In this document: in pieces, positions 1,394 to 62,682 of the stretch
Layout: every line of letters starts with the position of its first letter
How positions within the stretch are numbered: the stretch's first letter is position 1
Source: Lama guanicoe
Lineage: Eukaryota
Reading direction: 5' to 3'
NCBI GenBank assembly: GCA_013239625.1
Contig: MU053881.1
Location: forward strand, 16,608,373 to 16,672,372
DNA: 64,000 nt
The notes under the pieces: model-generated
Told to the model about the DNA's origin: nothing
The model's database searches: none
Seen by the model: only the letters and a program-made list of their open reading frames with translations
Program-made: the position numbers and the translations under genes

Positions 1394-4300
1394 AAAAAAA
1401 GAGCTCTGGTTTGGATACTCTGTGATAAGGGCGCGTTTTCTTCTGGCAGGGTGGCCCGTATGCCTGTATTTCTGCCCTTCCTGGTAGATTGTGTTATTTC
1501 TGTTGCCCTGAGGCTGCGGTGTTCATTGATTTTGACACCGCAGGGGTGGGGGGGAGCCAAGATGTCAGATGCTTCTGAAGTATGACAACAAGATTGCAGG
1601 AGTTGCATTCGTGTTTTGCTGTCCTCAAAAAAGTCCCTGTGCCAGAGTTCTGATGGTCCCATCCTGGTGCCTTTTGTGCAGCAAGTGTGAATTGAAGGAC
1701 CCAGGCAGCTCACACGGAGGGAGAGCAATTTGACTTTTTAAAACTTTTATCTCAATTACCAGCTACGATGAAAACTGAATTGCAATTTAGAACAAGCGCT
1801 CTGAAGTTCCTTCCTTTTGCCAGAAAAAAAAAGGAAAAAAAAAACCAACTCAGAAAGTCATTAAGCATCGTTAAGTGCCTTTTCAGAAGCTAATCCGGGG
1901 ATTTTGAAAGTCTGGCTTTGTTTCTTGGTGTGAAAAAAAGATTCCAGATTGTAAAACTGTCACATCAGGGTGTTTTCAGTCCCCTCCTCGGTACCCGTGA
2001 GTCTTGTTCTCAGAGAGCATCAGATAGTGTCTTCTCAGAATCAGTTTCAGTCTCTGTTGTGCACCTATGTTTTTTAAAAAAAAAAAAGTTTTCTTCACTT
2101 GATTTTGCAAAAGTACCTTGTTTCCTCATTGGATGTGAGATGTATTGTTTATAGATGCTTCCACTCCTAGAATATCCGTTTTAGAACAAACTCTGCCACA
2201 TCAGTGCCCAGCAAACACCCGCTTCATTTCAGATCCACCCCGTGCACAGCTATCCTGTGGCTGATTGGTATCGCCCAAGACGGTGACACTTTCCTGGCTC
2301 TGGGCAACCTGTAAATATTTTATGACTACAGTTAGCTGGTTTTGTTGACAGCCAGTGCACACTGGATATATACAAATGGCAACATTGTTAAATAAAAGCC
2401 AGATACAAAACCTGCTTTATCTGCAGTTTCTTGAATAGCGCTGCCTTTATTTTTCAGTGGAAAAATATTGAACCCCATGAAAAAAATAGAGCTATTCACG
2501 CCTGATTCAGGTGGGGTAGGGCGGAAGGGTAAGTGGATTTGAACGGCAATTTGAAGAAAAGACTGTTCTCTTTCTGAAATGCACTTTCTGAAACGCACAG
2601 TTCTGTTTCCTGTGCCCCTCCACCCCCTGCCCCTTCCCCCTCCCTCTCCCTCTCCCGATGGCTGGTTTTTGGAAAACATTTTTTTTTAAACCCCAAGGCT
2701 TCAAGCTATCATTTGGCCCAACATATCTGGCCATTCCAGAACAGTTGTTAACTTCAACTTTAAAACACCCCTGGTATTTAATCGCCGTCAATTCCAGGCA
2801 AGGAATTGGATTCTGCCCAGTGTACAGCCTGGCTGTTTTATGTTTAGAATCACTTTTCCCGCTTGGGACGCCCCAGTTTTTCCAGGGGAAAATCACCTGA
2901 TCAGGAGACTTGGCCCACTCTGATAGGATTTGGGAGAGGCAGGACACCTGACTGGTTTGGTTTGTCCCCCTCGGTGATACCATGATTGACTGTCAACTGC
3001 CCTACCTCCGGGGATCAGGATGTCTGTGCATTTTCATGGTGTCTGGGAGCTCCATCCATTGGCTGGTGGTGTCTAGGTTCACTGGACCTCAAAGATCTGT
3101 GCTAATTCGGAAAAGGCCAGAGTTGTTTCCTCTGGTTTGTGTATTTCAGCTTCCCCAGGTAGACGCTGAGAGGTCTCTGCCCAGCAGGCTGGCAGTGTGA
3201 CTCTCAGACTGGATGTTCTAAGAGTGCCACTGGGACACATTGTTACCTGTGCGAAAGCAGCTTGGTCCGTGTTGGAGTTCAGGGAAGCCAGTGTCACATG
3301 TGAACCAAACCCCACCCCCATCCTTGGCGCCCCAGCTCTGCCACCCTGGAACCTTCTGATTTACAAGCCCCGTGTTTCTGTCAATGGGTTACTGTTGTGC
3401 TTGTAGCTGTTCACGGGAAACCTCTCCAGTATTTCTTTTAGAACGAGCCTTTCTGTCTTAAGCGAGTTTGTCTTTTAGGAAGTAGCATTGATAGGTTAGC
3501 AAAAACGCTTTTTTTTTTTTCCGGAAGTGTGCAGTAAGAACAGAGCAAATATCAGATGGGTTAAGTCACGCTTTGCGTCGTCGAGTGAGTTGGATGTGAT
3601 TTCAGCAGCAGAATAAATGAGTTAACAGAAGGTAGCTAGAAGCATCCCATGAGTGACGCGGACGTGCCAGTGGACACCCCGGGGCACGTGTATGCATCCC
3701 CGGTGAGGAAAGGCACTGGTGCTTCACGCGCAGGCCTCTGAACCTCGGTTTCTGCAGGGAGGCTGCTGCAATAAAACCGCTCAGTGACCGTCAGGCCCCG
3801 GCGAGGGAGGCATCTCAGAAGGACAGAGTGCTCGTGCCCTGCTGGGTCTCGGGTCCACGACGTCGCAAGAGCAAAGCAGAAATCAGAGCGTGCCATTCAC
3901 AGAGCAGCTACTGCGCCCACAGGCGTTCCCAAGTCAAAGTATCCCCACCAAGGCCAGGAAGGGTTTTCTGCTGACTCGAAACACAGCAGGAGCCACAGAG
4001 AAGCCCCTTCCTCCAGTCTCTCTCAGTCATCACCGTCCATCCTGCTTCTCATGCACGCAGACCACGTGCCTGATGCAAGTCTCCATCCTGGATCCCAAGC
4101 TGACTTCAGACCAGCCCATTCTGAAGGCATCTGGAACATTCCTGTCAGCACATTTACTTTGAAAACACAAACTCCTTGAGCAAGAGGCTCTGCGGTGATG
4201 TCCTGAGACACTGGGGCTGAGCAGGCACCGTGGTGTGGGTGCAGCCTGCGGTCCCTGGCCCTGGGGCCTCAGCCGATCCCTGACTCCTCCAGGCCCTGGT

Positions 4301-6423: not shown

Positions 6424-6570
6424 TTTGGCAATGAGGAGCAGCAGCTGGCATGGGCCAAGCGGGAGAGCGAGAAGGCAGAACAGGAGCGGCTGGCGCGGCT
6501 GCGGCGGCAGGAACAGGAGGACCTGGAGCTGGCCATTGCGCTCAGCAAGGCCGACATGCCCGCTGCCTAG
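6424..6570 (+). CDS. EPS15L1: EPS15L1 last coding exon with two ubiquitin-interacting motifs
   Basis: ttttttcctttgcAG acceptor at 6423, phase 0, compatible with the 1216 donor. Encodes FGNEEQQLAWAKRESEKAEQERLARLRRQEQEDLELAIALSKADMPAA*, with tandem UIMs typical of the Eps15 family. Confidence 0.95.
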   Translation, partial: FGNEEQQLAWAKRESEKAEQERLARLRRQEQEDLELAIALSKADMPAA

Positions 6571-27312: not shown

Positions 27313-27549
27313 CATTTTGAAAACAAAATTCGTCAAGGAGGATCGTGGTCTTCTCCCACCGGGCCTTCAGTCTCTGATGGGGGCCGGGCGGCGGGGGCGT
27401 CGACGAGGGGGCGCCCTCGGTGGCCACGCTGTGCCCGGCCCGGTCCTCTGGGCCCAATAAATACCAGTCACAGTTTGGAAGGGAGCCGTGCCCGGCGCGT
27501 GGGACCCGCCACGGCCGCGCGCGGGTGGGCGGGAAGGGGGGCGCTTAGG

Positions 27550-27879
<330 letters not shown>

Positions 27880-28232
27880 TTAGGCACGAATCCCCCACCC
27901 CTGGGTCTCCTGATCCCCTAGGGGATCCGAAGCGCGCACTGGTGGCTCCCCAGTGTGTTTTGAGCCACGACGCCAGAGGGGTCCTAAGCGTGCATCTTCT
28001 CCCCAACGGTCTGGGACATAGCATCCCTCTAGGTTTCCTAAACGCACACCCCTACCCAAAGTCCTGAGCCGCGCTCCCAGGAGGGTCCTAAGCACGCGCC
28101 TCCTCCCCGGGCTCCCGAGCCACGCCCCCAGGGGGCTTTCTAAGACCGCGGCCCCTCCGCAACTCTTGGGCTACGCCCCTCTGGGGGCTTCCTGAGCGCG
28201 TCCTTCCGCCGGCGCCCCCCGCCGCCGCCCAC

Positions 28233-28725
28233 CTGTATGCGTGCGCAGGTGCGCCTTGAGGTGCGAGCTCTTGGTGTAGGTCTTGCCGCAGCCGGCGTAG
28301 CTGCAGGTGTGCGTGGCGGTGCGCTTGCGCGGCCAGGAACGGCGGCCGCGCTTGGGCTTGGCTTCCAGCAGCTCCAGCGGAGACGCGGGCGGCGTGAGGA
28401 GACCTCGGGCGGCGGGCGGCGCCAAGCCCAGCGCTGCGGCGGCGGCGGCCGCGTCGTCGAAAAGACCGAAGGCGGCGGGCGCGGGCGGCGGGTAATGGAG
28501 GCCGGTCCCGGGCGCGCCGAAGCCGGGGCCGCCGAAGGGCGGCGGGAAAGGGGCGCGCGGGCCGGGCGCGGGGCGGCGTGCGGGGCCGTCCGGGCTGAGC
28601 GGCGGCGTGTCGGGCGGCGGCGGGGGGCGGCCCCCGGGGCCTCGCATGCACGCGGCTGCTGGGCCTGGGTTTCCCTCGCGCTTGAGGCCCCGCGGCCCGC
28701 GGACCAGGCCTGGCGCGCAGCCGTA

Positions 28726-28759
<34 letters not shown>

Positions 28760-29070
28760 TCCGCCTCAGGGGGCTCGGCCTTCACCAGGCGGCCCGGCGG
28801 CGCCAGCAGGAAGCGGCCGTGCAGCGCGGGTCCCGGCGGCACGTCCAGCTCCGGCCGCAGCAGCTCGGACACCAAGCCGCCCGCGGGGGCGCCGTAGGGC
28901 GGCGGTGCGCTGGGCTCGGGGTAGTAGAACGCAGGCGGCGGGGGCGGCGGCGGCGGCTCCGGGGCGGCCTCAGAGCCCAGGCCGTCCAGCCCCATGGACA
29001 GGATGAAGTCCAGCACGCTGTTGAGGTCGTCGTCGGTGCCGCCTGCCTCGGGCTCTGCGCGCGGCCAGCG
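28233..29070 (-). CDS. KLF2: KLF2 coding exon 2 (activation/repression domains, NLS, zinc finger 1)
   Basis: cccgcAG acceptor; 838 nt, [26 protein letters not shown]...[13 protein letters not shown]...[24 protein letters not shown]; phase-1 donor G/GTGGG. Confidence 0.97.
28726..28758 (-). repeat. KLF2: Coding trinucleotide repeat (GGC)11, polyglycine in KLF2
   Basis: 33 nt of uninterrupted gcc on +, flanked by Asp and Tyr codons. Confidence 0.95.
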
Positions 29071-29255
29071 CTGCGGGTGACAGGGCGACAGGGCGCGGGC
29101 ATGAGCGCGCGGTGGGGCCGGGGATCGTCGCCCGCTGCCTGCGTTCTGCTACCCTGAGCCCGCTGTCCCTAACGTCTGCGTTCTACTACCCCGCAGCCCA
29201 CGTTCTACGACCCTGACCAGCCGCCCCCGCCGCCCGCGGTCCCTGCCGCCCTCAC

Positions 29256-29330
29256 CTCCTGCAGGCCGCGCTCCCGGCACGGGCTGGCGAAAGTGGAGAA
29301 GGACGGCAGGATGGGCTCGCTCAGCGCCAT
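29256..29330 (-). CDS. KLF2: KLF2 coding exon 1 ([25 protein letters not shown])
   Basis: ATG in strong Kozak context CCAGCCATGG, 75 nt, GAG/GTGAG donor. Identical to the recalled KLF2 N-terminus. Confidence 0.97.
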
Positions 29331-29454
29331 GGCTGGGACCCGGGGCCGACGCGGATTCGCGACACCGGTGAGCGGCTGCCCGGAGGCGGGCTGGTCGGGG
29401 CGCGCGCGGGCGGGCGGGGACGATTCTGCGGCCGCGGCCGGGCCCGCCCAAGCC

Positions 29455-29459
29455 TTATA
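29455..29459 (-). promoter_or_regulatory. KLF2: KLF2 TATA box (TATAA); TSS expected near 29430
   Basis: CCTATAAGGC on the - strand, about 125 nt upstream of the ATG, inside otherwise very GC-rich DNA. Confidence 0.8.
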
Positions 29460-29534: not shown

Positions 29535-29566
29535 CAGCCTAAATTTAGCCGCGGTATATAAGCCGG
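29535..29566 (-). promoter_or_regulatory. KLF2: KLF2 proximal shear-stress/statin response element with palindromic MEF2 site CTAAATTTAG (29539-29548)
   Basis: The - strand reads GGCTTATATACCGCGGCTAAATTTAGGCTG at about -110 to -135, matching the established conserved KLF2 MEF2 element (MEK5/ERK5-MEF2 pathway). Confidence 0.9.
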
Positions 29567-31609
29567 CGGGCGGCGGCGGCCGTGGCCACTGAGGCCGCCA
29601 GGGCTCTGCGCGGCCGGCCCGGCCCCTCTCGAGCCGCCAGGCCGCGTCCCCCAGCCTGGGCCCGCCTCCGCCCGTCTCCCGGGCGACGGCATCAACACGC
29701 GCTCCACAACAGCAGCGTGACGCTCAGGGATCCCCGGGGCGCCCCGTGGGCTCCCGCCTGCGCGAAGTCAGGGAGGACCTGGAGCGGGGGCGGCATCCGG
29801 GACTGTGAGAGGAACGCTGAACCCCAGGGCTTCTGGGGATCCCTGATGGAGGCGGAGATGGGCCCCGCAGCCGAAGCGGGGTCCCCAGAATCCTAGGTGG
29901 ATGGGGAAACTCGGTCCCACGAACTCCGGGGTGGGGTTCCCCGGACTCGTGATGGATGGAGAGACTCGGCTCCATTTTCTGCGGACTCCCCCAAGCCTGA
30001 TCCATTGTTATGCTCACGGCTCTGTCAAAAATCTTGCATGATGAGAAATGTTAAGTCTTTGAGCCACTCTCCCTTCAGGGAGCCTTTCAGAGCAGGGAAA
30101 CTGAAGCTCAGGAGGCAGTGGGAGTGACTTGAGGTCCTGCAGCTGCCCCAGGCCTGGTGCTTTACTGACTGGTGTTAAGTGAAGAGACAACACAGCGATG
30201 ACAATTTAACAACACAGACCCAGCTCCGGGGTGGGGGGGTGGCCACAGAGAACAAGCCAACCCTGTGAGCATCTTAAACACCACGGGGCCTGCCAGCAAG
30301 GGACTGTCACTCTTGTTATTGTGTGATGGCCCTGTGTGGGCACTGGGAACACATTTGCCAACAGGCAGACAAATCCTTCTGCCCTTGGGGCTTTCACTGT
30401 AGTGAGGGGTGGGGAGATGTAAAGTAAGGATATTGGGAAAGGGGCCTTTTGGTAGAATAAAGCAGGGAAGGGTGAGAGGTAGTGAGTGTGTGTGAGAGGG
30501 GAGAGAGAGGATGGTGGAATTTTGAACCTCACCCAGGAGGAGATGTGTGAGTCAAGATGTGGGGAAAGGGGGAGCCAAGTGGGCGTCAGAGGGAGAGCAT
30601 CTCATAGCGTAACCTGGAACCAGCACCCAGCCTTGGTCTCTTGATTCCAGAAGGTGTCCATGGTCAGCCACAATTCCGTGGCCAGTGTTGAGGGGTGTAG
30701 GCAGCTCCTGACCTGGAAACCTTCCCTGGGGCCAGCAGGGTTTTGCCAGTGAGAATAGCTGGATCCCCACAGTGCAGGGGCACTGCAGAGGCAGATGGGC
30801 TTGGCACCACACAGGCACCCAGAGACCCCTTTGGGAGTCTACAGTCCTGGACTCTCCCAGCTGGAAGGACACCACTTCACCGTGAGTCATCCGACTGTGG
30901 ATTTGGCAAACATTTGTTGATAAGCCCTATTTACCAGGTGTGAGGGACCCAGAGGTACTTCATTCAGTCCCAGGCACATTTGCTAGCGGGTGGAGGGGTG
31001 CGGGGCTCCCCTCTGCAGCTTTCCCTGGGCTGCTGGAGACTTCAAGTTCAGCTCCAACGTGCTTCCTGTGGCTGCCACTGTGATGGTTGAGACCTCAAGC
31101 TGTGGGACCTTGAACAAGTGGCTGTGCCTCTCTGGGCTTGCTTCCTCATCCATGAAATGCAGATTATAAGAGTACTTAACCCCAAACGGATATCGTGAGG
31201 GTCACACAGGCTCTTTCTCTTTTGTGGAAGTGCTGCTGACATCCTGTGAGCTCACTCCAGGTGCGGGTGAGATGAGCCTCCTGTGTGCTTCGCTCATTGC
31301 CTTTCTTTGGGCCTCAGTTTCCCCGAATGATAATGAGGGAAGTTGAAGGGAATCAAATTTATTTCCCAAGATGACTCTAAGGCAGTTGTAGACCTCTGCT
31401 CAGATGGTGCCAGGGGCCTCCTGTCAGCCTGGGGCAGCTCCTGCAGCTCTCTCCAGCCCATCTCCGTCCCTTCCTCCTCTCTCTTTCCTTGCAGGTTCTG
31501 AACACACCATTCACATTCTACTCTCCAGGCTTTTGCAGTTCTGTCCTCTCACTTTGCCCTTGTTCAGCTCTGGCTCGTCTCCCCCCACCTCTCCCCGCTT
31601 AATGACTGA

Positions 31610-33817: not shown

Positions 33818-36800
33818 CATGGGAACCAGCTGTTCTCCCCCCTGCCTTTTTTCCTCTTCAGTAGGGAGCCCCTCAAAGGCAGGGGCCTCCCTTGATTCAT
33901 CTCCGTGTCCCCCAGGCCCAGCTGTGGACCTGGTGTTGAAACAAACACGATGTGAGGAGGCTGGCCACCCACTGAGGACCTCCTGAGGCAGCATGAGACA
34001 CTTCAGCAGAACGCCCAGTAAACGGAACCAACAGCCAGAGCCACCCACGAGTGGAAAGAACGTGGATTTTAGTTGCTACTTCAGCTGTGTGACCTTGGGC
34101 ATGTCATGTAACCTCTCTGAGCCTCAGTTTCACAGTGAGATATGAGATGGCCTTTGTAGATGCTCAAGAGTACTTACTGCCTGATTATGGACATGAATGG
34201 ATGAGCCAGATAGGAGATCCTGGGCCGAGGGCGAGGCTTGGCACTGAGGGGTTCAGAGTGTGGCCCCTCTCGTCCTACCTCCTGGCTATCCAGGCTGCAC
34301 CCGCCTGTGTGGGTGTGTGTCCCCATGACATCTTAGGTGACGATGCTGTTGGAGAAAGAGTTCTGGACTTGAAGTCAGGTCCCAGGTCTTACAAGCTGGG
34401 TGACTTACTCTTGGCAAAGCCTTGAAGCCTCTGAGCAGCCCATCCCATCAACTGCTAAGTTGGGGAGGAGACACATGCCCAAGGTTTACATGATCAGTAA
34501 GTGAACTGGCAGTGCTGAAGCGTAAGGTGGGTACTGTGTAAATGAGCATCCTTCTCCCTGTCCTGGGTAAGTTCCTAAAGGGTAGGAGTGGCTCTGTGTC
34601 TGTGCCCCGGCTGTCCCCCTGTCACAGTTGGGAACTTTATGCCTCTTGATGGTGATGCCCTTGTTTCATCTCTTTCCCAAGGCCTCCCATCCTCTCCTAA
34701 CAAATGAACATTTAGTCGAAGCCAAGGAGGCAGATCATTTCCCTCTAATCCATCAGTAATGTTTGGAGCACTGTGCTGGCACTGATTCTGAGATTGCATC
34801 CAGGCTCAGTGCTGGAAAAGAGGGCTGTGATTGATTATTGATGTCTGTCCATGATTGATTGGTGATGTCTGTCACTGATGGCAGGTTATAGGAGTAGTAA
34901 GTATGCGTCTTCCCACTTACCATCTCTTGCTAGGCTGTCCTTAAGGGCTGAGGAAATTTGCAAATCAGTTTTTAGTCTGAGCAACAAATAAATGCTGAGC
35001 TCACTCTCCATGTCCTGCTGGACGTGGAGAGGAAGCTAAAAAAGTACATAGCCCTGTTTCTGCTCACAGAGAGCTTACAGATCTCCTTCAGCTGGGTCTT
35101 GGCCATTTCCAATATCCTTTATTCCTTTCTACTTTTATTCTAGAGTCTAGACCGCCTCTCTCTTAACAGTTGTTCCACCCCAAATAGCTATTGTGTGCAC
35201 TTGGCCCAACTCCCAAGAGCAAGCACTCAGGAATTCTACAGAAAACACGTCATTTAAAATACAGCTGAGCCTCCAAGACAAATTGTGAATGCTTTAGAGG
35301 AATGACATGTCTCATGACAGCAGCAACTGGACGATGACTCCCAGCTGGGGCAATTAGGGTGTTTCTGCTTAAGTTTGCACAAGTTTTTTGTTTTTTTTTT
35401 CTTTTCAGTGTGTTGCCAAACTCAACTCTCCATGTTGCAAAGATGTTTGGCAGCCTGGTGTTTCTCGAGGATAGGAAGTGATGCAGGCAGGGATGCCCTG
35501 CGTGTGGGCTTTTTTTTGCAAATCACCACCGTGCCATCGCCATGCCACCACTATGCCACCACCATGCTTGGGGCCAAGGCCCGATGAGAAAGGGCACTTG
35601 CCAGTTAGCCTCCTTGTCTCTGGGGCTTTCTCCTTGCTTATGAACAATTAAGTAGTGAGTGCGTAGGGGAAGGGGAAGGATTCCATGTGATTGATGACTG
35701 ATGGATTCCTATGAGAACCCCTTTTCATCTCCTCACCAGCCAGGCTATGACTGTCTTAGTCTCATTGAGGCAGGGTCAGGAGAGGTGGAGGAAGGAACAT
35801 TTATTCAGCACTTACTGTATGCCAGGCCCTGCAATGAAGAACTGCATGTGTTTTCTCCTTTAATCCTCACAGCAGGTCTGTTCAACATGGTGAGTGATGA
35901 ACAGAACAGGGGGCTCAGCCGGAAGTGCAGGTCAGATCCCAGCCCTAATGGCCTTCTCTTTTTAAACCTTAGTCCCTGTTTCATCAAAGGAGCATGAGAA
36001 TGCCTTGTCACATGCTGATGAATATAAGAGACACCCTTTCTAAAGCACTTTTCCTAGAAGAGACCCTCTGTTCTTGGAAGCTGTTTTTATTTGCCTAAAT
36101 CAAGGGCTGGCACACCCTGGCTTGTAGCTTAAAAAAAAAAGTATATATAAGAAAATGTCAGTAGTAGTATTCCTATATTTCATGTATTCTCCAATGTTGA
36201 TTACATACATGTACACATGTGTGTATAATTTTTATCAAGGTGAAATTTATATAAAATTAACTATTTTAAAGTGAAAGATTTAGAGGCATTTAGGACATTC
36301 ACAATATTGTGCAGCCATCACCTCTGTATAGTTTCAGAACATTTTCATCCCCCAAAAGGAAACCCCGTCCTTCCTCCTTCAGCCCCTGGTGACCACTAGT
36401 CCACCTTCTGACTCTATGGATTTGCTTGTTTTGGACATTTCATATAAAGGGAATCACATACTCTGTGACCACAGCAGCTTTTGTTCAGCTAATAGCTAAG
36501 CATGGGTTTTACGTTTATGAATGGCTGAAAAAAATCAAAAGAAGAACAACATTTTGCAATAGAGGACCATTCTATGAAAATCAAATTTTACTGTCCATAT
36601 ATATGTTTTATTGGTACTCAGCCATGCCCATTTATGGGTGCGTTGAGACTATGCCCAGTAAGAGTATGGCCACAGGCCCGAAGCTTAGAGAAGTTTCACA
36701 GGGAGAAACCAGAAGAGCCCAGACTCCAGAGTCTGAGCTGACTGCCCCCACCCCACCCCCTGCCCAAACCATCGCTGCCTCTCATATGCATGTAACAGAC

Positions 36801-37089: not shown

Positions 37090-37402
37090 CTTTTTTGTTT
37101 TATTTTATTTTTAAAGATTTAGTTTTATTTAAACATTTGATATTTGATTTTATTTTAAAATGTTTTATTTGCAGAAAATAAAATGTTTTATTTAGATTTA
37201 AGTTTTTCAAATTCCATGTAGATTTAATTTTTTATTTAAAATTTTTGTTTAGATTTAAAAATTTTTAATTTTATTTAGATTTAATTTTTATCTACCATTT
37301 TAAAGTTTTATTTAGATTTAGAATTTTAAAATTTTATTTAGATTTTTTAATTTTTTACATTTCATTTAGATGTTTTTAAAAATTGAAATTTTATTTAGAT
37401 TT
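37090..37402. repeat. AT-rich degenerate minisatellite (TTTTATTTAGATTT units) adjoining an L1M 3' end (about 37403-37760, - strand)
   Basis: About 8 recurrences of (t)ttagattt-like cores at irregular spacing of roughly 25-35 nt. Confidence 0.75.
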
Positions 37403-38669
37403 GCTGTGGAATCATTCGTATAACTAAATGAAATTTACCAAATGGTGCAACCATCACCACCACCCAGTTTTAGAACTTTTCTGTCACCCCAAGAAGATTC
37501 CTCCTGCCCCCTTTTCAGTCCATCCCCACTCCCACCCCCAGCTCCATGGCAACCACTGGTGTGCTTTCTGAGTCTATAGATTTGCCTTTTCTGGGTATTT
37601 CATATAAATGCCATCATACAGTGTGATCCTTTCCATCTGGCTTCTTCCACTCAGCATAATTTGAGGCAGCATGCCTCATTCACTGGTTCCTTTTCATTGC
37701 TGAACAGCATTCCATTTTCTGTATGGACCACAACCTGGTCATCCCTTCACCTGCCGACGGACACAGGCTACCTCGAAGAGCACAGTAATTTGTGTGTTGT
37801 CTGTGTTACTTCCTGGAACCCAGGAACAATCCCACACTCAGAACTTAGAAAAGGCCATAACATCCTTTTCCACCTCGCGTGCCCTGGCCTCCCCTCCCCT
37901 CATTGGCCTGGAACTCCAGCACTGTTGCCTGCAAAGTCACCCCTTTGGGCAACTGGTTAGACCTGCAGGCGTCCCTGACACTCCTTGCCAGGAGGAGAAG
38001 GTGGGCATACTGCCTCTCCAGACCCCCCCGTGTGTTCTGTGCTCATGTGCCCAGCATAACCATACATCTGACCTGATACGGAGAGCAGGGGAGGTCAAGG
38101 GGCTGGGGCAACTGTGACCAAGTTTGAGCCCCACATTGGCACCTGGGGGACCCTCTTCCTTGCACAGTCCCCTGACCTGCCTTCTGATTTCAGGGAAGGT
38201 TTGATCCTTGCCTGTACAGCTAACAAGCCTGCACAGATCCTCCCCTCCCGGGGATCATGGCCTGTGTCACGCAGCTTCCTTTGGTTTCCCGTCATCAGCC
38301 AGAGGAGCTGGCTTCGGCAGTGAGCTCATTTGAATCTCTCTCAGCTCCTTCCATGGTGAATGGCCTTGAGCACGTTGCTTCACTCTCTGACCTGTGATGC
38401 TGTAATCGGGGCAGAAGATAATAATGAGGTTATTATGTCATTATATCCTTATTACATATTACTAGTAATGACAGGAACTCAACAGGTTGGCCAGTGCTCT
38501 GCAAAGGATGAATTGCTTAAGGACCTCGATTAACATCATTGAAGTTGATTTGTAAAGTTCTACATCTTCTGTATGGGGAAGAGGACGAGATATTTCTGGA
38601 TGCCTGGAACAGTTTCTTGGGAAAACAGAGGAACATAGTATTTTTTGGATCCATTTTTTTTTCACTTTC

Positions 38670-44730: not shown

Positions 44731-45007
44731 GCTACATTATCTTGCCCTAGCTGGTCCTCCACTCAGGGTCCCACAAAGCTGCGAGCAAGGTGTCAGCCAG
44801 GGCAGGAGTCTCACCTGAGGCCAGGGCTCCTCCTCCAGGCTCCCTGGGTGTTGGCAGAACCCAGTTCCTTGCGGTTGTAGGACGGAGGCCTCGGCTTCTA
44901 GAGGCCGCCCACCCGCCCTCCGCACACCTGGGCAGCAAGTTTCCCCAGGGCCCACAGGACGGCGGCTCTGCTACTTCCAGTCTCTGATGTCTCCACCCTT
45001 AAAAAAA

Positions 45008-48500: not shown

Positions 48501-49169
48501 CGGGACTGTGAGCACGCGTCCCCAGGCGCTTAAAAATAGCCACGGTTTATTGCAGACCTGAGTCTAACAATCAGGGTTTTCTTCAGATGTAAAAACTTTT
48601 CCACCAAAAGAGCAGTTTTTTGAAAATATGTGTAGTAAGAGAGAGTTTTCCTTTTTCCTTTTTTTTTCCCCTTCCTAGGAGTAGATGGGAAAGGCTTGGA
48701 TTTAAAGTGGCCAGCCCTGTGTCCTGCTTGAGTGCGTGTGAGTGTGTGTTTGAGGCTTACGACTGGCATAGGGGAGAAGGAAACTAACACTGAAGACCTA
48801 CTATGTGCCAGGCCCTGCCAGGAGCCCCCTGGGTCCTCAGGACTCAGACAGCCATTGATATTTTTACCACTTTGTAGTGAGAGAGGGAAATCCTCAGCTG
48901 AGCCAGGAGTTCCACCGTCTGATCGCAAAGCCTCTGATCCTGACCCAGACTTATTCCCCACCCACCTTGAGCCCTGTGGGGGTCCATAGACCCTCTAAAA
49001 CTGAAGGCAAGCTGCCAACACATTTATCTACAATGAATTGTCTCCAGCTTTCATCACACGGGGCCCAGGACATCAAAAAGGTACAAAACCATGCCCGCCA
49101 GAGAGGCTTTTTAGAGACCCACAGCCTTGAGCTAGAGTCAAGGTGCTTCTCTTTTCCTATCCTCGGGTT

Positions 49170-51172: not shown

Positions 51173-52850
51173 TATCAGGTGGGGGCTGCCTAGGAGGAAA
51201 CTTGGGCTAACCTCAGGCCCATGGCCAGAGTCCCAGAAGAGTTGCGTGCAAGGAGCAGGGACCCTCTTTGGTTGGATAGCTGTTGTCAGGAGCCATAGGG
51301 GATACAGATGTCAGGTACCACTGAGTCCTGGGGAGCAGGGACCACCAATGTGCCCCCTTTACAGAAATGGAAACTGAGGAAATGGGATGAAATGAGATGC
51401 CCAAGAAACAGCATCTGTAGGCCAAGGGTGCCCCAGTCATCGCTGGGGGAGGGCCCGTGGGGGAGCCGCCCCAGGACATTAGGAAGGGAGGGAGTGTAGG
51501 GCTACGCCTCTGACAGCCCCCAGCCACCCCAGTAGCAGTCTCATGGGCTGTGATACCCCCTCAGGCGGGCCCAGCATGCGAGGGCTGATGACCAGAAAAG
51601 AGCTCGAATCCCAGTAATCAGGAGGTGCGTTGGTGAACATCCCCATACTTGGAGCCAGGTAGCTGGCTCCGTTGGGCTGGGGGAGGGGCTTCACCCCTCC
51701 GAGCCTCAGTTTCCCCCTGAACGTGCTCCACCACCCGGTGGGTGGGCGGAGCATTAGCAGAAGGTGCGTCTGCTTGTGGGCTGGTGCACAGTTGGACCCA
51801 AGCCCTGTAGGTTCTGTTATCCCCCCCACCAGACGCCTCAGCAGGGACCTGAAACCCCTTCCTCGAGGGGACCAGACATTGTCCTATTTGTTTAATTGAG
51901 AAGCTCGAGTCACAGAGAGGACACAGGCTCATTCTGTAATGTTTGAACAGGACAGAACTCAGCCCACCCTGTTGGAAAGTGGGGACAAGGTGGGGGCCAG
52001 GGGAGCACACACAGGGAGCTCTGGAGAGGCGAATTAGGGGCAACTGGCTAATTGATCGATTGGTATTTTCTCCGATTAAAGACAACAAGGCAGTGGAACC
52101 GGTCATCTTGCTCTTGGAAGAGAGTGGTTCCCTGCTCAGGCAGAGATGGGCAGAAAAGCACCACCTCCCATGGAAGAGATGTTGAGAGGGACAGACAGAC
52201 AGGGAAAGAGGGAGATGCAGAGAGAGATGGGGAGAGAAAGAGACAGAGAGAAACAGACGAAGGGGCCCTTGAGACTGGTTGGTGGAGTTTAGCCTTCAGG
52301 CTACTTTGAATTGAAGCCCCCGATGGGATTTGAGTCTTCACTGGACAGATGCGGTTACTGAGGCCGGGAGGGGCGACCTGGCACCACGATTCTCCACCCA
52401 CCGGGCCTGTGGATGCTGCTCCTCGTGGAGCCCCCAGCTGGCCTGCTGCGATCCTCAGCCTCACAGATGCCCACTCCCCCCACCCAAAAGTCCCCTTTAG
52501 CCAGTTAAAAATAGCTGATGGAGGATGACGGTGACTTCTGAAAGGGGCCTCAGAGCCCAGGCGGCCGCGATGTGCAGGCTGCCGCCAGCGACAGCACTAA
52601 TTGTGGCAGCGTTCAGGGTACAAAGGCGCCTTCAGGGGAACCGGCATGTCTGGATCAGATTTTGGAGAGCAAACGTTTCTTTCATTTCCCTGAGCCCCGG
52701 CAGGAATCTGCCCTCATGGCAGAAGAAAACATTCCCTGGAAAGGAACAGGATCTTTGGGGGGCGTAGGGGGTGCGGGGGGAGCCCCAGGGCTCTACTGAA
52801 TGGCGGCACATAGGGGACCCCCCAGCACACCCCATAGCAGCCCACCTCCC

Positions 52851-53235
52851 TTAGAGTAAGTTGGGAAGCCTTCCCTGTTCTCTAGTTTTATGAAAGCGTC
52901 TGTGTAGCACTGGCATTATTTCTTTCCTAAACGTTTGGGGAAATTTACCAGTGACGCCACTGGACCTGGCTTTCTCTGTGGGAAGGTTCTCGACCACCCC
53001 GTCAATTTCCTCCAAAGATACAGGGCTATCCGGGTGATCTATTTCTTCTCCAGTGAGCTTGGGGAATTTGAATCTTTCAAGGAATGTGTCCCTGTCATCT
53101 GAGCCATTGAATTGATTGGAATCAAGTTGTTTATAACATTCTCTTGTGATCCTTTTAGTATGTGTAGGATCTGTTGTAGGGGTCCTCTCTCCCCTTCCCA
53201 ACACTGGTCATTTATGTCTTCTTTTATTTTCCTGA
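52851..53235 (-). mobile_element. Internal L1 ORF2 fragment (region between endonuclease and RT domains)
   Basis: Translation TTDPTHTKRITRECYKQLDSNQF...FLERFKFPKLTGEEI...NLPTEK...GKFPQTFRKEIMPVL parallels L1 ORF2 [23 protein letters not shown]...FLDTYTLPRLNQEEV...SLPTKKSPGPDGFTAEFYQ. Confidence 0.85.
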
Positions 53236-54148
53236 TCGATGTGGCTCAGCCCAGGATGAGAAGCCCCAAACCCTGGTGTTGAGTCTGTCCCAAAATTCAG
53301 GCAGTGATGGGCTTTGTGCTCCTCGATGTTCTGAGGGCAATGACATTGGAAGCCCTTAAGGGAAGGCAACCTTGCCCAGCTCAAAGCACAGAAAGCCTGC
53401 CTGTGTAAGGGAAGACCCTGGCTCAGATCTGTTACTTTTCATCAGGGCTGGGATAGGGTGAGGCAAGTGAGGCATCTGGGTGCAAAATTTGAGAAGGTGC
53501 TCCATCAGCAGGCTTGTGGAAGGCAAGGTTGTCCCTGAGACAACTTGGCCACGTGGTCTTGGGTCACCATGACAACACACAATGCCTGTTCTCCCTTGCT
53601 CCACCTGTGAGATGGATGGATTTTCACCCCAGGGAAGTAAAAGCCCTGGGAAATAATAAGAATTCATAGTAATCACTCAGCCTTCTAGAGTCTCTATTAT
53701 AAGCGTTCAGTGCTTAACAACAACATAGGAGTTTCGTTGGTCCCATTTTACAGATGAGAAGACTGAGATCCAGAGTTGGTGGCAGAGGCAGGATTTGAGC
53801 ACTGGCTGTGGGCTCCCCCACACCGCCAGCCTGGGAGTGCTTTGGTTTCACTGCCGCACGCATCCGAAATCACAGCTCCACCCGAGTTCCTCTCCCCCGA
53901 TAGTGCCTGGGTTTGCATACTCCCCCGGAGAAAAGTGACTTAAAGCAGGAACACCCACGGTGTCCCTGACTCTATCTAAGTTCTGGAAGCGGGGCAGCCT
54001 CGGGGACTCTGAACTTGGCTGGTGTTTTCCCCTGGCCCTGGGACCCAGGGACAGGGGTTTGGCCTGCCTTCGGCCCTGAACCACCTGCTCGGCCCGGCTT
54101 CCAGCCGGCCTGCGCGCTAGTGAGGGAGAGAGGGGACCCTCCGCTGTC

Positions 54149-54175
54149 CTTATATACCAGGGTTATTTTTAACCC
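54149..54175 (+). promoter_or_regulatory. Candidate distal KLF2 enhancer core: CTTATATACC-AGGG-TTATTTTTAA (MEF2)
   Basis: Same 10-mer and same 4-nt spacing to a MEF2 consensus as the KLF2 promoter element, inside a repeat-free, CpG-enriched island (about 53850-54420). Confidence 0.65.
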
Positions 54176-54579
54176 GGCCTTCCAGAACATTACGGAGCTT
54201 CCTCTCTCCGACTCGCAGGAAGCCCTACTTGGCTGTGTTTCCTGCTAACACGCGGCCCCGAGATTGCTGAGAACAACAGGCCCAAGACTGCTCGGCTCCG
54301 GGAAAAAAACCTGGCCCCCTTTCAAAGCCCTGACAAAACCCTTCCAGAGCCCGGCACTCCCGCCAGCCGGAGCACGGCCCCCACGGCGCTGACAAATTGG
54401 CTGAGACCATGCTTAAGGCTCCCAGGCAGGGGTACCCCCGCCCCCATCCGACTCCATCATCCCATCCCAAGGTGGGAAAAAAGTGTGTGCCCTCCCCGAC
54501 CCCCAACTGGATGGACAGATACTGGCATTGGTGGATTTTTTTTTTTTACTGCTTCTGTTTTTTATTTTTATCCATGTAT

Positions 54580-62386: not shown

Positions 62387-62682
62387 GATAAACAACCTCA
62401 AGGTCCTACTGTACAACACAGGGAACTATATTCAATATCTTGTAATAGCCTGTAATGAAAAAGAATACAAGGGGGAGGGCATAGCTCAGTGGTAGAGCAT
62501 ATGCTTAGGTCCTGGGTTGAAACCCCAGTACCTCCACTAACAAAAAGAAAAGAAAAAAGAAAGACCTAAGAAGAATATATATACATATATCTGAATCACT
62601 GTGCTATACACCAGAAATTGACACAACATTGTAAACCAACAATACTTCAGTTAAAAAATTATATATATATAGTAAAAAAAAA
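62387..62682 (+). mobile_element. 5'-truncated younger L1 3' end inserted in an MLT1 LTR
   Basis: gataaacaac...ctactgtacaacacagggaactatattcaatatcttg...tgaatcactgtgctatacaccagaaattgacacaacattgtaaa is a typical laurasiatherian L1 3' UTR. TSD aagacacccaggctta / aagacatccggtctta (13/16). Confidence 0.75.
62471..62570 (+). mobile_element. tRNA-derived SINE with internal deletion, nested in an L1 3' end
   Basis: gggggagggcatagctcagtggtagagcatatgcttaggtcctgggttgaaacccc lacks half of the anticodon arm; A-rich tail; aagaata on both sides. Confidence 0.82.

What the first reader, a model, noticed from the sequence alone, without database searches (positions are those of the whole stretch)
54149..54175. 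Distal twin of the KLF2 flow-response promoter element about 24.6 kb upstream
Seen: the promoter (- strand, 29562-29539) reads CTTATATACC-GCGG-CTAAATTTAG. The distal site (+ strand) reads CTTATATACC-AGGG-TTATTTTTAA. The 10-mer and the 4-nt spacer length are identical, both spacers end in GG, and a MEF2 consensus (YTAWWWWTAR) follows, here inside the palindrome GGGTTA-TTTT-TAACCC. Under uniform composition the 10-mer alone is expected about 0.1 times in this window, and the MEF2 consensus at one fixed offset about 1 in 16,000. Flanks are not otherwise similar, and the site sits in a repeat-free CpG-enriched island. Inference: a fixed-spacing composite motif (MEF2 plus an unidentified TATATA-binding partner or a second MADS half-site) defines a KLF2 shadow enhancer, and possibly a general flow/ERK5-responsive grammar.
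Basis: partly seen in the sequence, partly recalled or inferred. Interest (0 to 1): 0.8.

Follow-up and report, generated by a model that had tools for sequence, protein, structure and literature searches.

The report
KLF2 enhancer's MEF2-TBP double motif
About 25 kb upstream of the blood-flow gene KLF2 this mammal carries a second copy of the promoter's paired MEF2 site and TATA box, likely the counterpart of a flow-dependent KLF2 enhancer whose MEF2-TBP double motif was already described in a 2026 preprint, so the finding is real but known.

Summary
The 24-nt composite occurs only at the KLF2 promoter (29539-29562) and at 54149-54172, even with 3 mismatches allowed (0.03 expected). Read on the other strand, the 'unidentified' 10-mer is a TATA box; both copies match the TBP-selected site STATATAAGS and are the window's only two matches. 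Fleisinger et al. [quoted passage not shown] They show transgenic activity, flow dependence, motif mutants and flow-increased TBP binding. The distal site is most likely the KLF2-41 ortholog (about 70%; KLF2-66 about 25%). That assignment rests on position and motif content; I obtained no orthologous sequence. One angle absent from the preprint's main text: both TATA halves point away from MEF2 and have an initiator consensus 31 and 33 nt downstream (5 of 46 other TATAAR sites do). They may be real core promoters for an upstream-antisense RNA and an enhancer RNA; untested. This scan's earlier notes held nothing relevant. Verdict: already known.

The parts
54149..54158 (-). Distal TBP half: TATA box on the - strand (GGTATATAAG), pointing away from MEF2 and towards KLF2
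   Evidence: matches STATATAAGS (consensus), one of only 2 matches in the window
54159..54162 (.). 4-nt spacer (equal to a 3-bp spacer if the TBP motif is counted as 12 nt)
   Evidence: the preprint's 3-bp spacer; the register match is my inference
54163..54172 (.). Distal MEF2 consensus site, inside the palindrome 54160-54175
54119..54124 (-). Initiator consensus BBCABW, A+1 at 54121, 33 nt after the T of TATAAG; candidate enhancer-RNA start (inferred, untested)
   Evidence: consensus and spacing range
54199..54304 (.). Three ETS-type sites (54203-, 54217+, 54243-) and RBPJ-like sites (54268+, 54299+) next to the double motif
   Evidence: consensus motifs recalled; matches only, binding untested
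53801..54556 (.). Putative enhancer body: moderately CpG-enriched, no self-repeat; one WGATAR (53977-), one CACCTG (54082), one further RBPJ consensus (54473)
   Evidence: boundaries approximate
29539..29562 (+). Promoter MEF2-TBP double motif (MEF2 29539-29548, TATA half 29553-29562), 112-135 nt upstream of the inferred start; its TATA points away from KLF2
   Evidence: the preprint gives 110-134 bp in human
29585..29590 (+). Initiator consensus, A+1 at 29588, 31 nt after the T of TATAAG; candidate upstream-antisense start 161 nt from the sense start (inferred, untested)
29425..29459 (-). KLF2 sense core promoter: TATAAG at 29459 and initiator consensus with A+1 near 29427 (inferred start)
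27549..29330 (-). KLF2 coding region, three exons
48530..48553 (+). MEF2 consensus followed by a degenerate copy of spacer plus TATA half (9 of 14 identical to the promoter); possibly the weak KLF2-32 element
   Evidence: significance marginal

Best explanation
The site is a MEF2 consensus and a TATA box at the same spacing as in the KLF2 promoter, and is likely the core of a distal flow-dependent KLF2 enhancer orthologous to human KLF2-41 (less likely KLF2-66). Shown here: the sequence, spacing, orientation, uniqueness and neighbouring ETS-type sites. Shown in human and mouse by the preprint, and inferred for this species: MEF2 binds one half and TBP the other, both halves are needed, ETS factors confer endothelial activity, and shear stress raises TBP occupancy. 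Proposed by the preprint but unproven: MEKK3-MEK5-ERK5 signalling modifies MEF2 so that it recruits or stabilises TBP, with TBP acting as a sequence-specific activator rather than as part of a pre-initiation complex. Looping to the KLF2 promoter is inferred.
For: Exact, unique composite. The 10-mer's reverse strand matches the TBP-selected site, and these are the only two matches in the window. The promoter copy sits at 112-135 nt against the preprint's 110-134. The preprint reports the same double motif in two upstream enhancers, conserved with its spacing, with mutation of either half abolishing reliable endothelial activity, dependence on heartbeat, and TBP CUT&RUN signal rising under flow. 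For KLF2-41: only 1 WGATAR and 2 E-boxes in 797 nt, at or below the window background of 1.4 and 6.0 per kb, whereas KLF2-66 has several GATA motifs and 3 conserved E-boxes. RBPJ-like sites are present, as in KLF2-41. Linear scaling puts KLF2-32, whose mouse counterpart is reported to bind MEF2C, at about 48730, next to the MEF2 site at 48530, and KLF2-66 beyond the window. If the site were KLF2-66, a second good double motif should lie between it and the gene; a relaxed scan found no other composite with perfect halves.
Against: No orthologous sequence was obtained, so conservation and orthology were not tested here: no genome is held, two metagenome scans gave 0 hits and 1 unrelated 26%-GC hit, and the DNA runs listed are near-identical holders only. 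The preprint's sequence figures and supplements were not visible, and it is a single preprint. One mouse primer from inside the Klf2-50 (= KLF2-66) deletion has its best window match about 200 nt from the motif, which would favour KLF2-66, but its score (25) lies within the shuffled-primer range of 22-30. No binding or activity data exist for this species.
Confidence: 0.9

Rival explanations
1. Same element, different mechanism: the TATA half is a true oriented core promoter gated by the adjacent MEF2 dimer. It would start an enhancer RNA near 54121 (- strand) and, at the promoter, an upstream-antisense RNA near 29588 (+ strand), and this initiation would be why TBP is needed.
For: Both TATAAG are followed by BBCABW at 31 and 33 nt, within the -33 to -28 range given for TATAAR. 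The sense KLF2 TATA shows the same arrangement, against 5 of 46 other TATAAR sites. At the promoter, MEF2 lies between a forward and a reverse core promoter 161 nt apart, as in the divergent-promoter model. TATA motifs lie preferentially on the strand of the main start in unidirectional distal elements. The preprint concedes that a role in initiation at enhancers is 'harder to rule out', and its main text never uses 'antisense', 'initiator' or 'strand'. Active Pol II was seen at KLF4-148, though read there as looping.
Against: The preprint saw only very weak Pol II, TFIIB and TFIIE at the enhancers despite strong TBP. The initiator is a loose motif (about 10% per 6-nt window), the test was made after seeing the sequence on n = 2, and it needs the second TATA register (the first gives 33 and 35 nt). 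MEF2 sits 6-8 nt upstream of the TATA, where TFIIA and TFIIB contact DNA (recalled), which could block complex assembly. No start-site data were examined.
Confidence: 0.2
2. The element is the ortholog of KLF2-66 (mouse Klf2-50, mm2219) rather than KLF2-41, and the degenerate site at 48530 is what remains of KLF2-41.
For: One WGATAR, a further GATA core and a CACCTG E-box lie within about 260 nt on one side; George et al. name Ebox1 as CACCT. The best match of one Klf2-50 primer falls nearby. The 48530 region also has ETS- and RBPJ-type sites.
Against: Needs the interval to be 0.37 of the human length, against 0.60 for KLF2-41. The 48530 TATA half keeps only 6 of 10 bases, whereas the preprint calls the motifs near-identical and deeply conserved. 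The primer match is within the null range. No Pfam domain of an upstream neighbour gene was seen in 135 frames tested at 54-64 kb, which is weak evidence: three longer minus-strand frames were not tested, and a true exon scored only E = 0.025.
Confidence: 0.25
3. Chance resemblance or a non-functional relic in this species.
For: Raw identity of 18 of 24 is reached by 10 of 300 shuffled 24-mers. CpG enrichment is modest. No functional data for this species.
Against: The pattern expectation is 0.03 at 3 mismatches. Both halves are intact, ETS-type sites are adjacent, and two such enhancers are known upstream of KLF2 and reported conserved.
Confidence: 0.03

Closest known systems
MEF2-TBP double motif of KLF2-41, KLF2-66 and the KLF2 promoter (Fleisinger et al., bioRxiv 10.64898/2026.02.04.703710; whole main text read, figures and supplements not seen)
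   Same: Same gene, upstream distal position, MEF2 site plus TBP site at fixed spacing, same promoter position, neighbouring ETS sites.
   Different: Another mammal, 24.7 kb rather than 41 or 66 kb from the start. Binding and activity are untested here. The TATA orientation and downstream initiator are not discussed in the preprint's main text.
Mouse Klf2-50 enhancer, mm2219 (George et al., bioRxiv 10.1101/2022.09.29.510167; passages read)
   Same: Distal endothelial/endocardial Klf2 enhancer with MEF2 sites; deletion is viable and lowers ventricular Klf2 by about 40%.
   Different: It is the KLF2-66 ortholog, HAND2-dependent with 3 conserved E-boxes; this site is E-box- and GATA-poor.
KLF4-148 enhancer (Maejima et al., PMC4010393, passages read; double motif shown in the 2026 preprint)
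   Same: MEF2 site required for statin induction; its printed site shares AAAAATAACC with the distal site read on the - strand; carries the double motif.
   Different: Paralogous gene.
Drosophila MEF2-TBP TATA box of antimicrobial peptide genes (Clark et al., PMC3807682; passages read)
   Same: Signal-dependent cooperation of MEF2 with TBP.
   Different: One overlapping site that is the gene's own core-promoter TATA box, not two adjacent sites in an enhancer.

Membership tests
KLF MEF2-TBP double motif | MEF2 consensus site | tested here: met
   YTAWWWWTAR at 54163-54172
KLF MEF2-TBP double motif | Adjacent TBP/TATA motif in the same orientation as in the KLF2 promoter | tested here: met
   Identical 10-mer pointing away from MEF2; STATATAAGS match
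KLF MEF2-TBP double motif | Same spacer length as the promoter motif | tested here: met
   Identical spacing; equivalence to the preprint's '3 bp' is inferred from a 12-nt TBP register
KLF MEF2-TBP double motif | Located at a flow-induced KLF gene | tested here: met
   24.7 kb upstream of KLF2
KLF MEF2-TBP double motif | Deep cross-species conservation | tested here: inconclusive
   No ortholog retrieved
KLF MEF2-TBP double motif | MEF2 and TBP occupancy, flow-dependent endothelial activity | not testable with these tools
   Shown only for human and mouse elements in the preprint
KLF2-41 ortholog | ETS and RBPJ-like motifs, no GATA in the core | tested here: inconclusive
   3 ETS-type and 2 RBPJ-like sites within 200 nt; 1 WGATAR about 170 nt away on the other side
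KLF2-66 / Klf2-50 ortholog | Multiple GATA motifs and 3 conserved E-boxes | tested here: inconclusive
   1 WGATAR and 2 E-boxes in 797 nt, not above background; primer match within the null range
SRF CArG box / second MADS site | CC(A/T)6GG, or MEF2 binding to the A/T motif | tested here: not met
   CArG matches only at 36628 and 59938; the preprint's EMSA was negative
TATA-Inr core promoter | TATAAR with T at -33 to -28 from a BBCABW initiator | tested here: met
   33 nt (distal) and 31 nt (promoter, antisense)
TATA-Inr core promoter | Focused transcription start at the initiator | not tested
   No start-site data examined; position of the RNA contigs undetermined

The most novel reading that the evidence does not exclude
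The MEF2-TBP 'flow code' is a MEF2-gated, oriented TATA-initiator core promoter. At KLF2 it fires an upstream-antisense RNA 161 nt from the gene's start and an enhancer RNA from the distal element towards the gene, and this initiation, not TBP acting as a conventional activator, is what makes the element flow-responsive. A degenerate third copy at 48530, with a broken TATA half, would then be a natural weak variant of the same code.
Probability: 0.2. Interest if true: 0.5.

Novelty: already known. Interest (0 to 1): 0.18.

Why it matters
The motif explains how broadly expressed MEF2 selectively drives the atheroprotective KLF2/KLF4 programme under blood flow, but that result is already in a February 2026 preprint. 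This window adds one more mammal with the motif intact, and shows the sequence-only reader recovered a real and recent discovery. The remaining value is a cheap test of a point the preprint left open: whether the TBP half starts transcription, for which this analysis predicts exact start positions and strands.

Tried and rejected
Genome-wide scan for the motif: no genome is held. Metagenome scan with a published mouse Klf2-50 primer: 0 hits. Metagenome scan with the composite pattern: 1 hit, L001, 26% GC, with no meaningful similarity to the window, rejected as chance. Six published mouse primers aligned to the window: none exceeded the range of 15 shuffled primers each, except one flanking Klf2-50 primer that scored 27 against a null maximum of 26 at about 57.2 kb, not followed up. 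Sequencing runs for 53000-54550: 14 of 24 rows hold at least 95% of the words (same or very close species, 8 marked as possible source); 6 RNA runs hold 0.05-0.21 of the words, but where those words lie is undetermined, so they are no evidence for or against an enhancer RNA. Pfam scan for an upstream neighbour gene at 54-64 kb: 0 hits in 37 plus 98 frames, three longer minus-strand frames not tested. CArG / second MADS site: rejected. A cruciform reading of the palindrome was considered and dropped: arms are 6 bp and are the symmetric MEF2 site itself. Relaxed composite scan: 31 other rows, none with both halves perfect, mostly in A/T-rich tracts. Literature search for the 10-mer: 24 papers, none relevant by title. 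Searches for a KLF2 divergent or enhancer RNA: nothing specific in the titles and abstract starts of 15 of 38 and 2 of 2 papers. Search on the promoter palindrome: 0 papers. The journal version of George et al. is not held. Earlier findings of this scan: nothing relevant. No complex prediction was sent, since the tool takes no DNA and the pair is a textbook one.

Full report
1. Observation. The pattern CTTATATACC-N4-YTAWWWWTAR has exactly 2 matches in the window, both perfect, even with 3 mismatches allowed; 0.03 are expected and 0 of 100 shuffles gave two. The 10-mer occurs nowhere else. Flanks share 15 of 40 and 10 of 40 bases. Raw identity of the two 24-mers is 18 of 24, which 10 of 300 shuffled 24-mers also reach somewhere in the window, so the signal lies in the exact 10-mer, the equal spacing and the consensus-preserving changes in the MEF2 half. 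The palindrome at 54160-54175 is real, has 6-bp arms and is the symmetric MEF2 site with its flanks. CpG enrichment is modest (GC 0.62, obs/exp 0.61, 21st of 318 windows). No self-repeat lies between 51175 and 54556 (no repeat library was available). The gene is KLF2.

2. What the 10-mer is. On the opposite strand it reads GGTATATAAG, a TATA box that points away from the MEF2 site in both copies. Both copies match STATATAAGS, the TBP-selected site quoted in Vo ngoc et al. 2017 (PMC5580651, passages), and are the only two matches in 64 kb. It is not a CArG box.

3. Prior art. A search for 'KLF2 enhancer' and one for KLF2, MEF2, TBP, enhancer and TATA both returned Fleisinger et al., bioRxiv 10.64898/2026.02.04.703710. 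I read all 8 parts of the main text; figures and supplements, which hold the sequences, were not visible and bear on the ortholog assignment. The paper reports two conserved enhancers, KLF2-41 and KLF2-66, that drive arterial and microvascular endothelial expression and lose most activity in heartbeat-less embryos. Each, like the promoter, carries a MEF2 site and a TBP site at a fixed 3-bp spacer. Mutating either half removes reliable activity, the A/T motif does not bind MEF2 in EMSA, and TBP binding rises under flow. Only 8 sites genome-wide were bound by both factors with a 2-4 bp spacer, among them KLF4-148 and the KLF6 and KLF7 promoters. The promoter motif lies 110-134 bp upstream of the start; here it lies 112-135 nt from the start inferred from the sense TATA and initiator. 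Counting the TBP motif as 12 nt gives a 3-nt spacer at both sites (the 12-nt length is recalled). The earlier promoter studies (Huddleson 2004, Sohn 2005) I know only through this preprint and George et al. Of 4 papers holding 'KLF2-41', 'KLF2-66' or 'MEF2-TBP', only this preprint concerns KLF2.

4. Which enhancer. I could not obtain an ortholog. KLF2-41 has ETS and RBPJ-like motifs and no GATA; KLF2-66 has several GATA motifs and its mouse form three conserved E-boxes (George et al., passages). The 797 nt around the distal site hold 3 ETS-type, 2 RBPJ-consensus, 1 WGATAR and 2 E-box matches, against window backgrounds of 2.9, 1.9, 1.4 and 6.0 per kb (motifs recalled). None of these counts is enriched, but the three ETS-type sites cluster within 75 nt of the MEF2 site. 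Scaling to 41 kb needs a factor of 0.60 and places KLF2-32 at about 48730, beside a MEF2 site at 48530, and KLF2-66 outside the window; scaling to 66 kb needs 0.37 and predicts a second double motif near 44800, where none is found. Against this, a primer from inside the mouse Klf2-50 deletion has its best window match about 200 nt from the motif, though at a score inside the shuffled range, and another Klf2-50 primer marginally exceeds its null near 57.2 kb. I put KLF2-41 at about 70% and KLF2-66 at about 25%.

5. Mechanism. Best supported: a MEF2 dimer and TBP bind side by side, ETS factors restrict activity to endothelium, and shear signalling through MEK5-ERK5 raises TBP occupancy and so KLF2 transcription. 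Binding, requirement and flow dependence are shown in human and mouse and inferred here; the phosphorylation step is the preprint's proposal. The centres of the two sites are 15 bp apart, about one and a half helical turns, so the two minor-groove binders would sit on roughly opposite faces (my inference from recalled structures). The Drosophila precedent uses one overlapping site at the true TATA box (Clark et al., passages).

6. An open angle. The preprint dismisses a core-promoter role at the promoter by distance from the start and concedes that it is harder to exclude at enhancers; its main text has 0 occurrences of 'antisense', 'initiator' or 'strand'. In this window the promoter's TATA half points away from the gene, and a BBCABW initiator follows 31 nt after the T of TATAAG, 161 nt upstream of the sense start. 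The distal TATA has one at 33 nt. The range given for TATAAR is -33 to -28. Among 46 other TATAAR sites 5 show this, so two of two has a rough chance of about 1 in 85, but the test was made after the fact and depends on the register chosen. The layout at the promoter fits the model of forward and reverse core promoters flanking factor sites, and TATA motifs are strand-biased at unidirectional distal elements (PMC13655173, passages). Against it, a strong TATA can work without an initiator and random sequence often passes as one (PMC13532657, passages), and the preprint saw little Pol II, TFIIB or TFIIE at the enhancers. Six RNA runs hold small shares of the region, but where is undetermined, so they count for nothing. 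My literature check for a KLF2 antisense or enhancer RNA was shallow (listings only), so such a transcript may already be annotated. I give this reading 0.2.

7. A third site. At 48530 a MEF2 consensus is followed by CCAC-GGTTTATTGC, 9 of 14 identical to the promoter's spacer plus TATA half. The per-position chance is 0.001, or 0.006 given the CC that often follows MEF2 sites, over 24 other site-orientations: marginal. It may be the weak KLF2-32 element, whose mouse form scored 1 of 8.

8. Verdict. Observation confirmed, interpretation essentially right, and already described with in vivo evidence. Novelty: already known. Interest 0.18.

Noticed in passing
window 48530-48553 (+): MEF2 consensus followed by a degenerate spacer plus TATA half (9 of 14 identical to the promoter) in a CpG-enriched stretch; candidate KLF2-32 counterpart with a broken TBP half.
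   Followed up: partly
window 52505-52514: Isolated perfect MEF2 consensus 1.6 kb from the double motif, no TATA half, in a mildly CpG-enriched stretch.
   Followed up: no
window 29585-29590 (+) and 54119-54124 (-): Initiator consensus 31 and 33 nt downstream of the TATA half of each double motif; both contain CACT.
   Followed up: partly
window 28726-28758 (-): Pure run of 11 GGC codons (polyglycine) in KLF2 exon 2; length not compared across species.
   Followed up: no
window 6424-6570 (+): Terminal coding exon with a weak ubiquitin-interacting-motif hit (E = 0.025), convergent with KLF2; EPS15L1 by recalled synteny, not confirmed by a call.
   Followed up: partly
window 3400-3800: CpG-enriched non-coding stretch (obs/exp up to 0.87) upstream of that exon, probably intronic; possible regulatory element downstream of KLF2.
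   Followed up: no
window 62470-62550: Short tRNA-like SINE inserted in an L1-type 3' end; resembles camelid SINEs from recall, which would make the species a camelid; not tested.
   Followed up: no
window 37090-37420: A/T-rich low-complexity tract of degenerate TTTAGAT/TTTTATT units that yields spurious MEF2-like matches.
   Followed up: no
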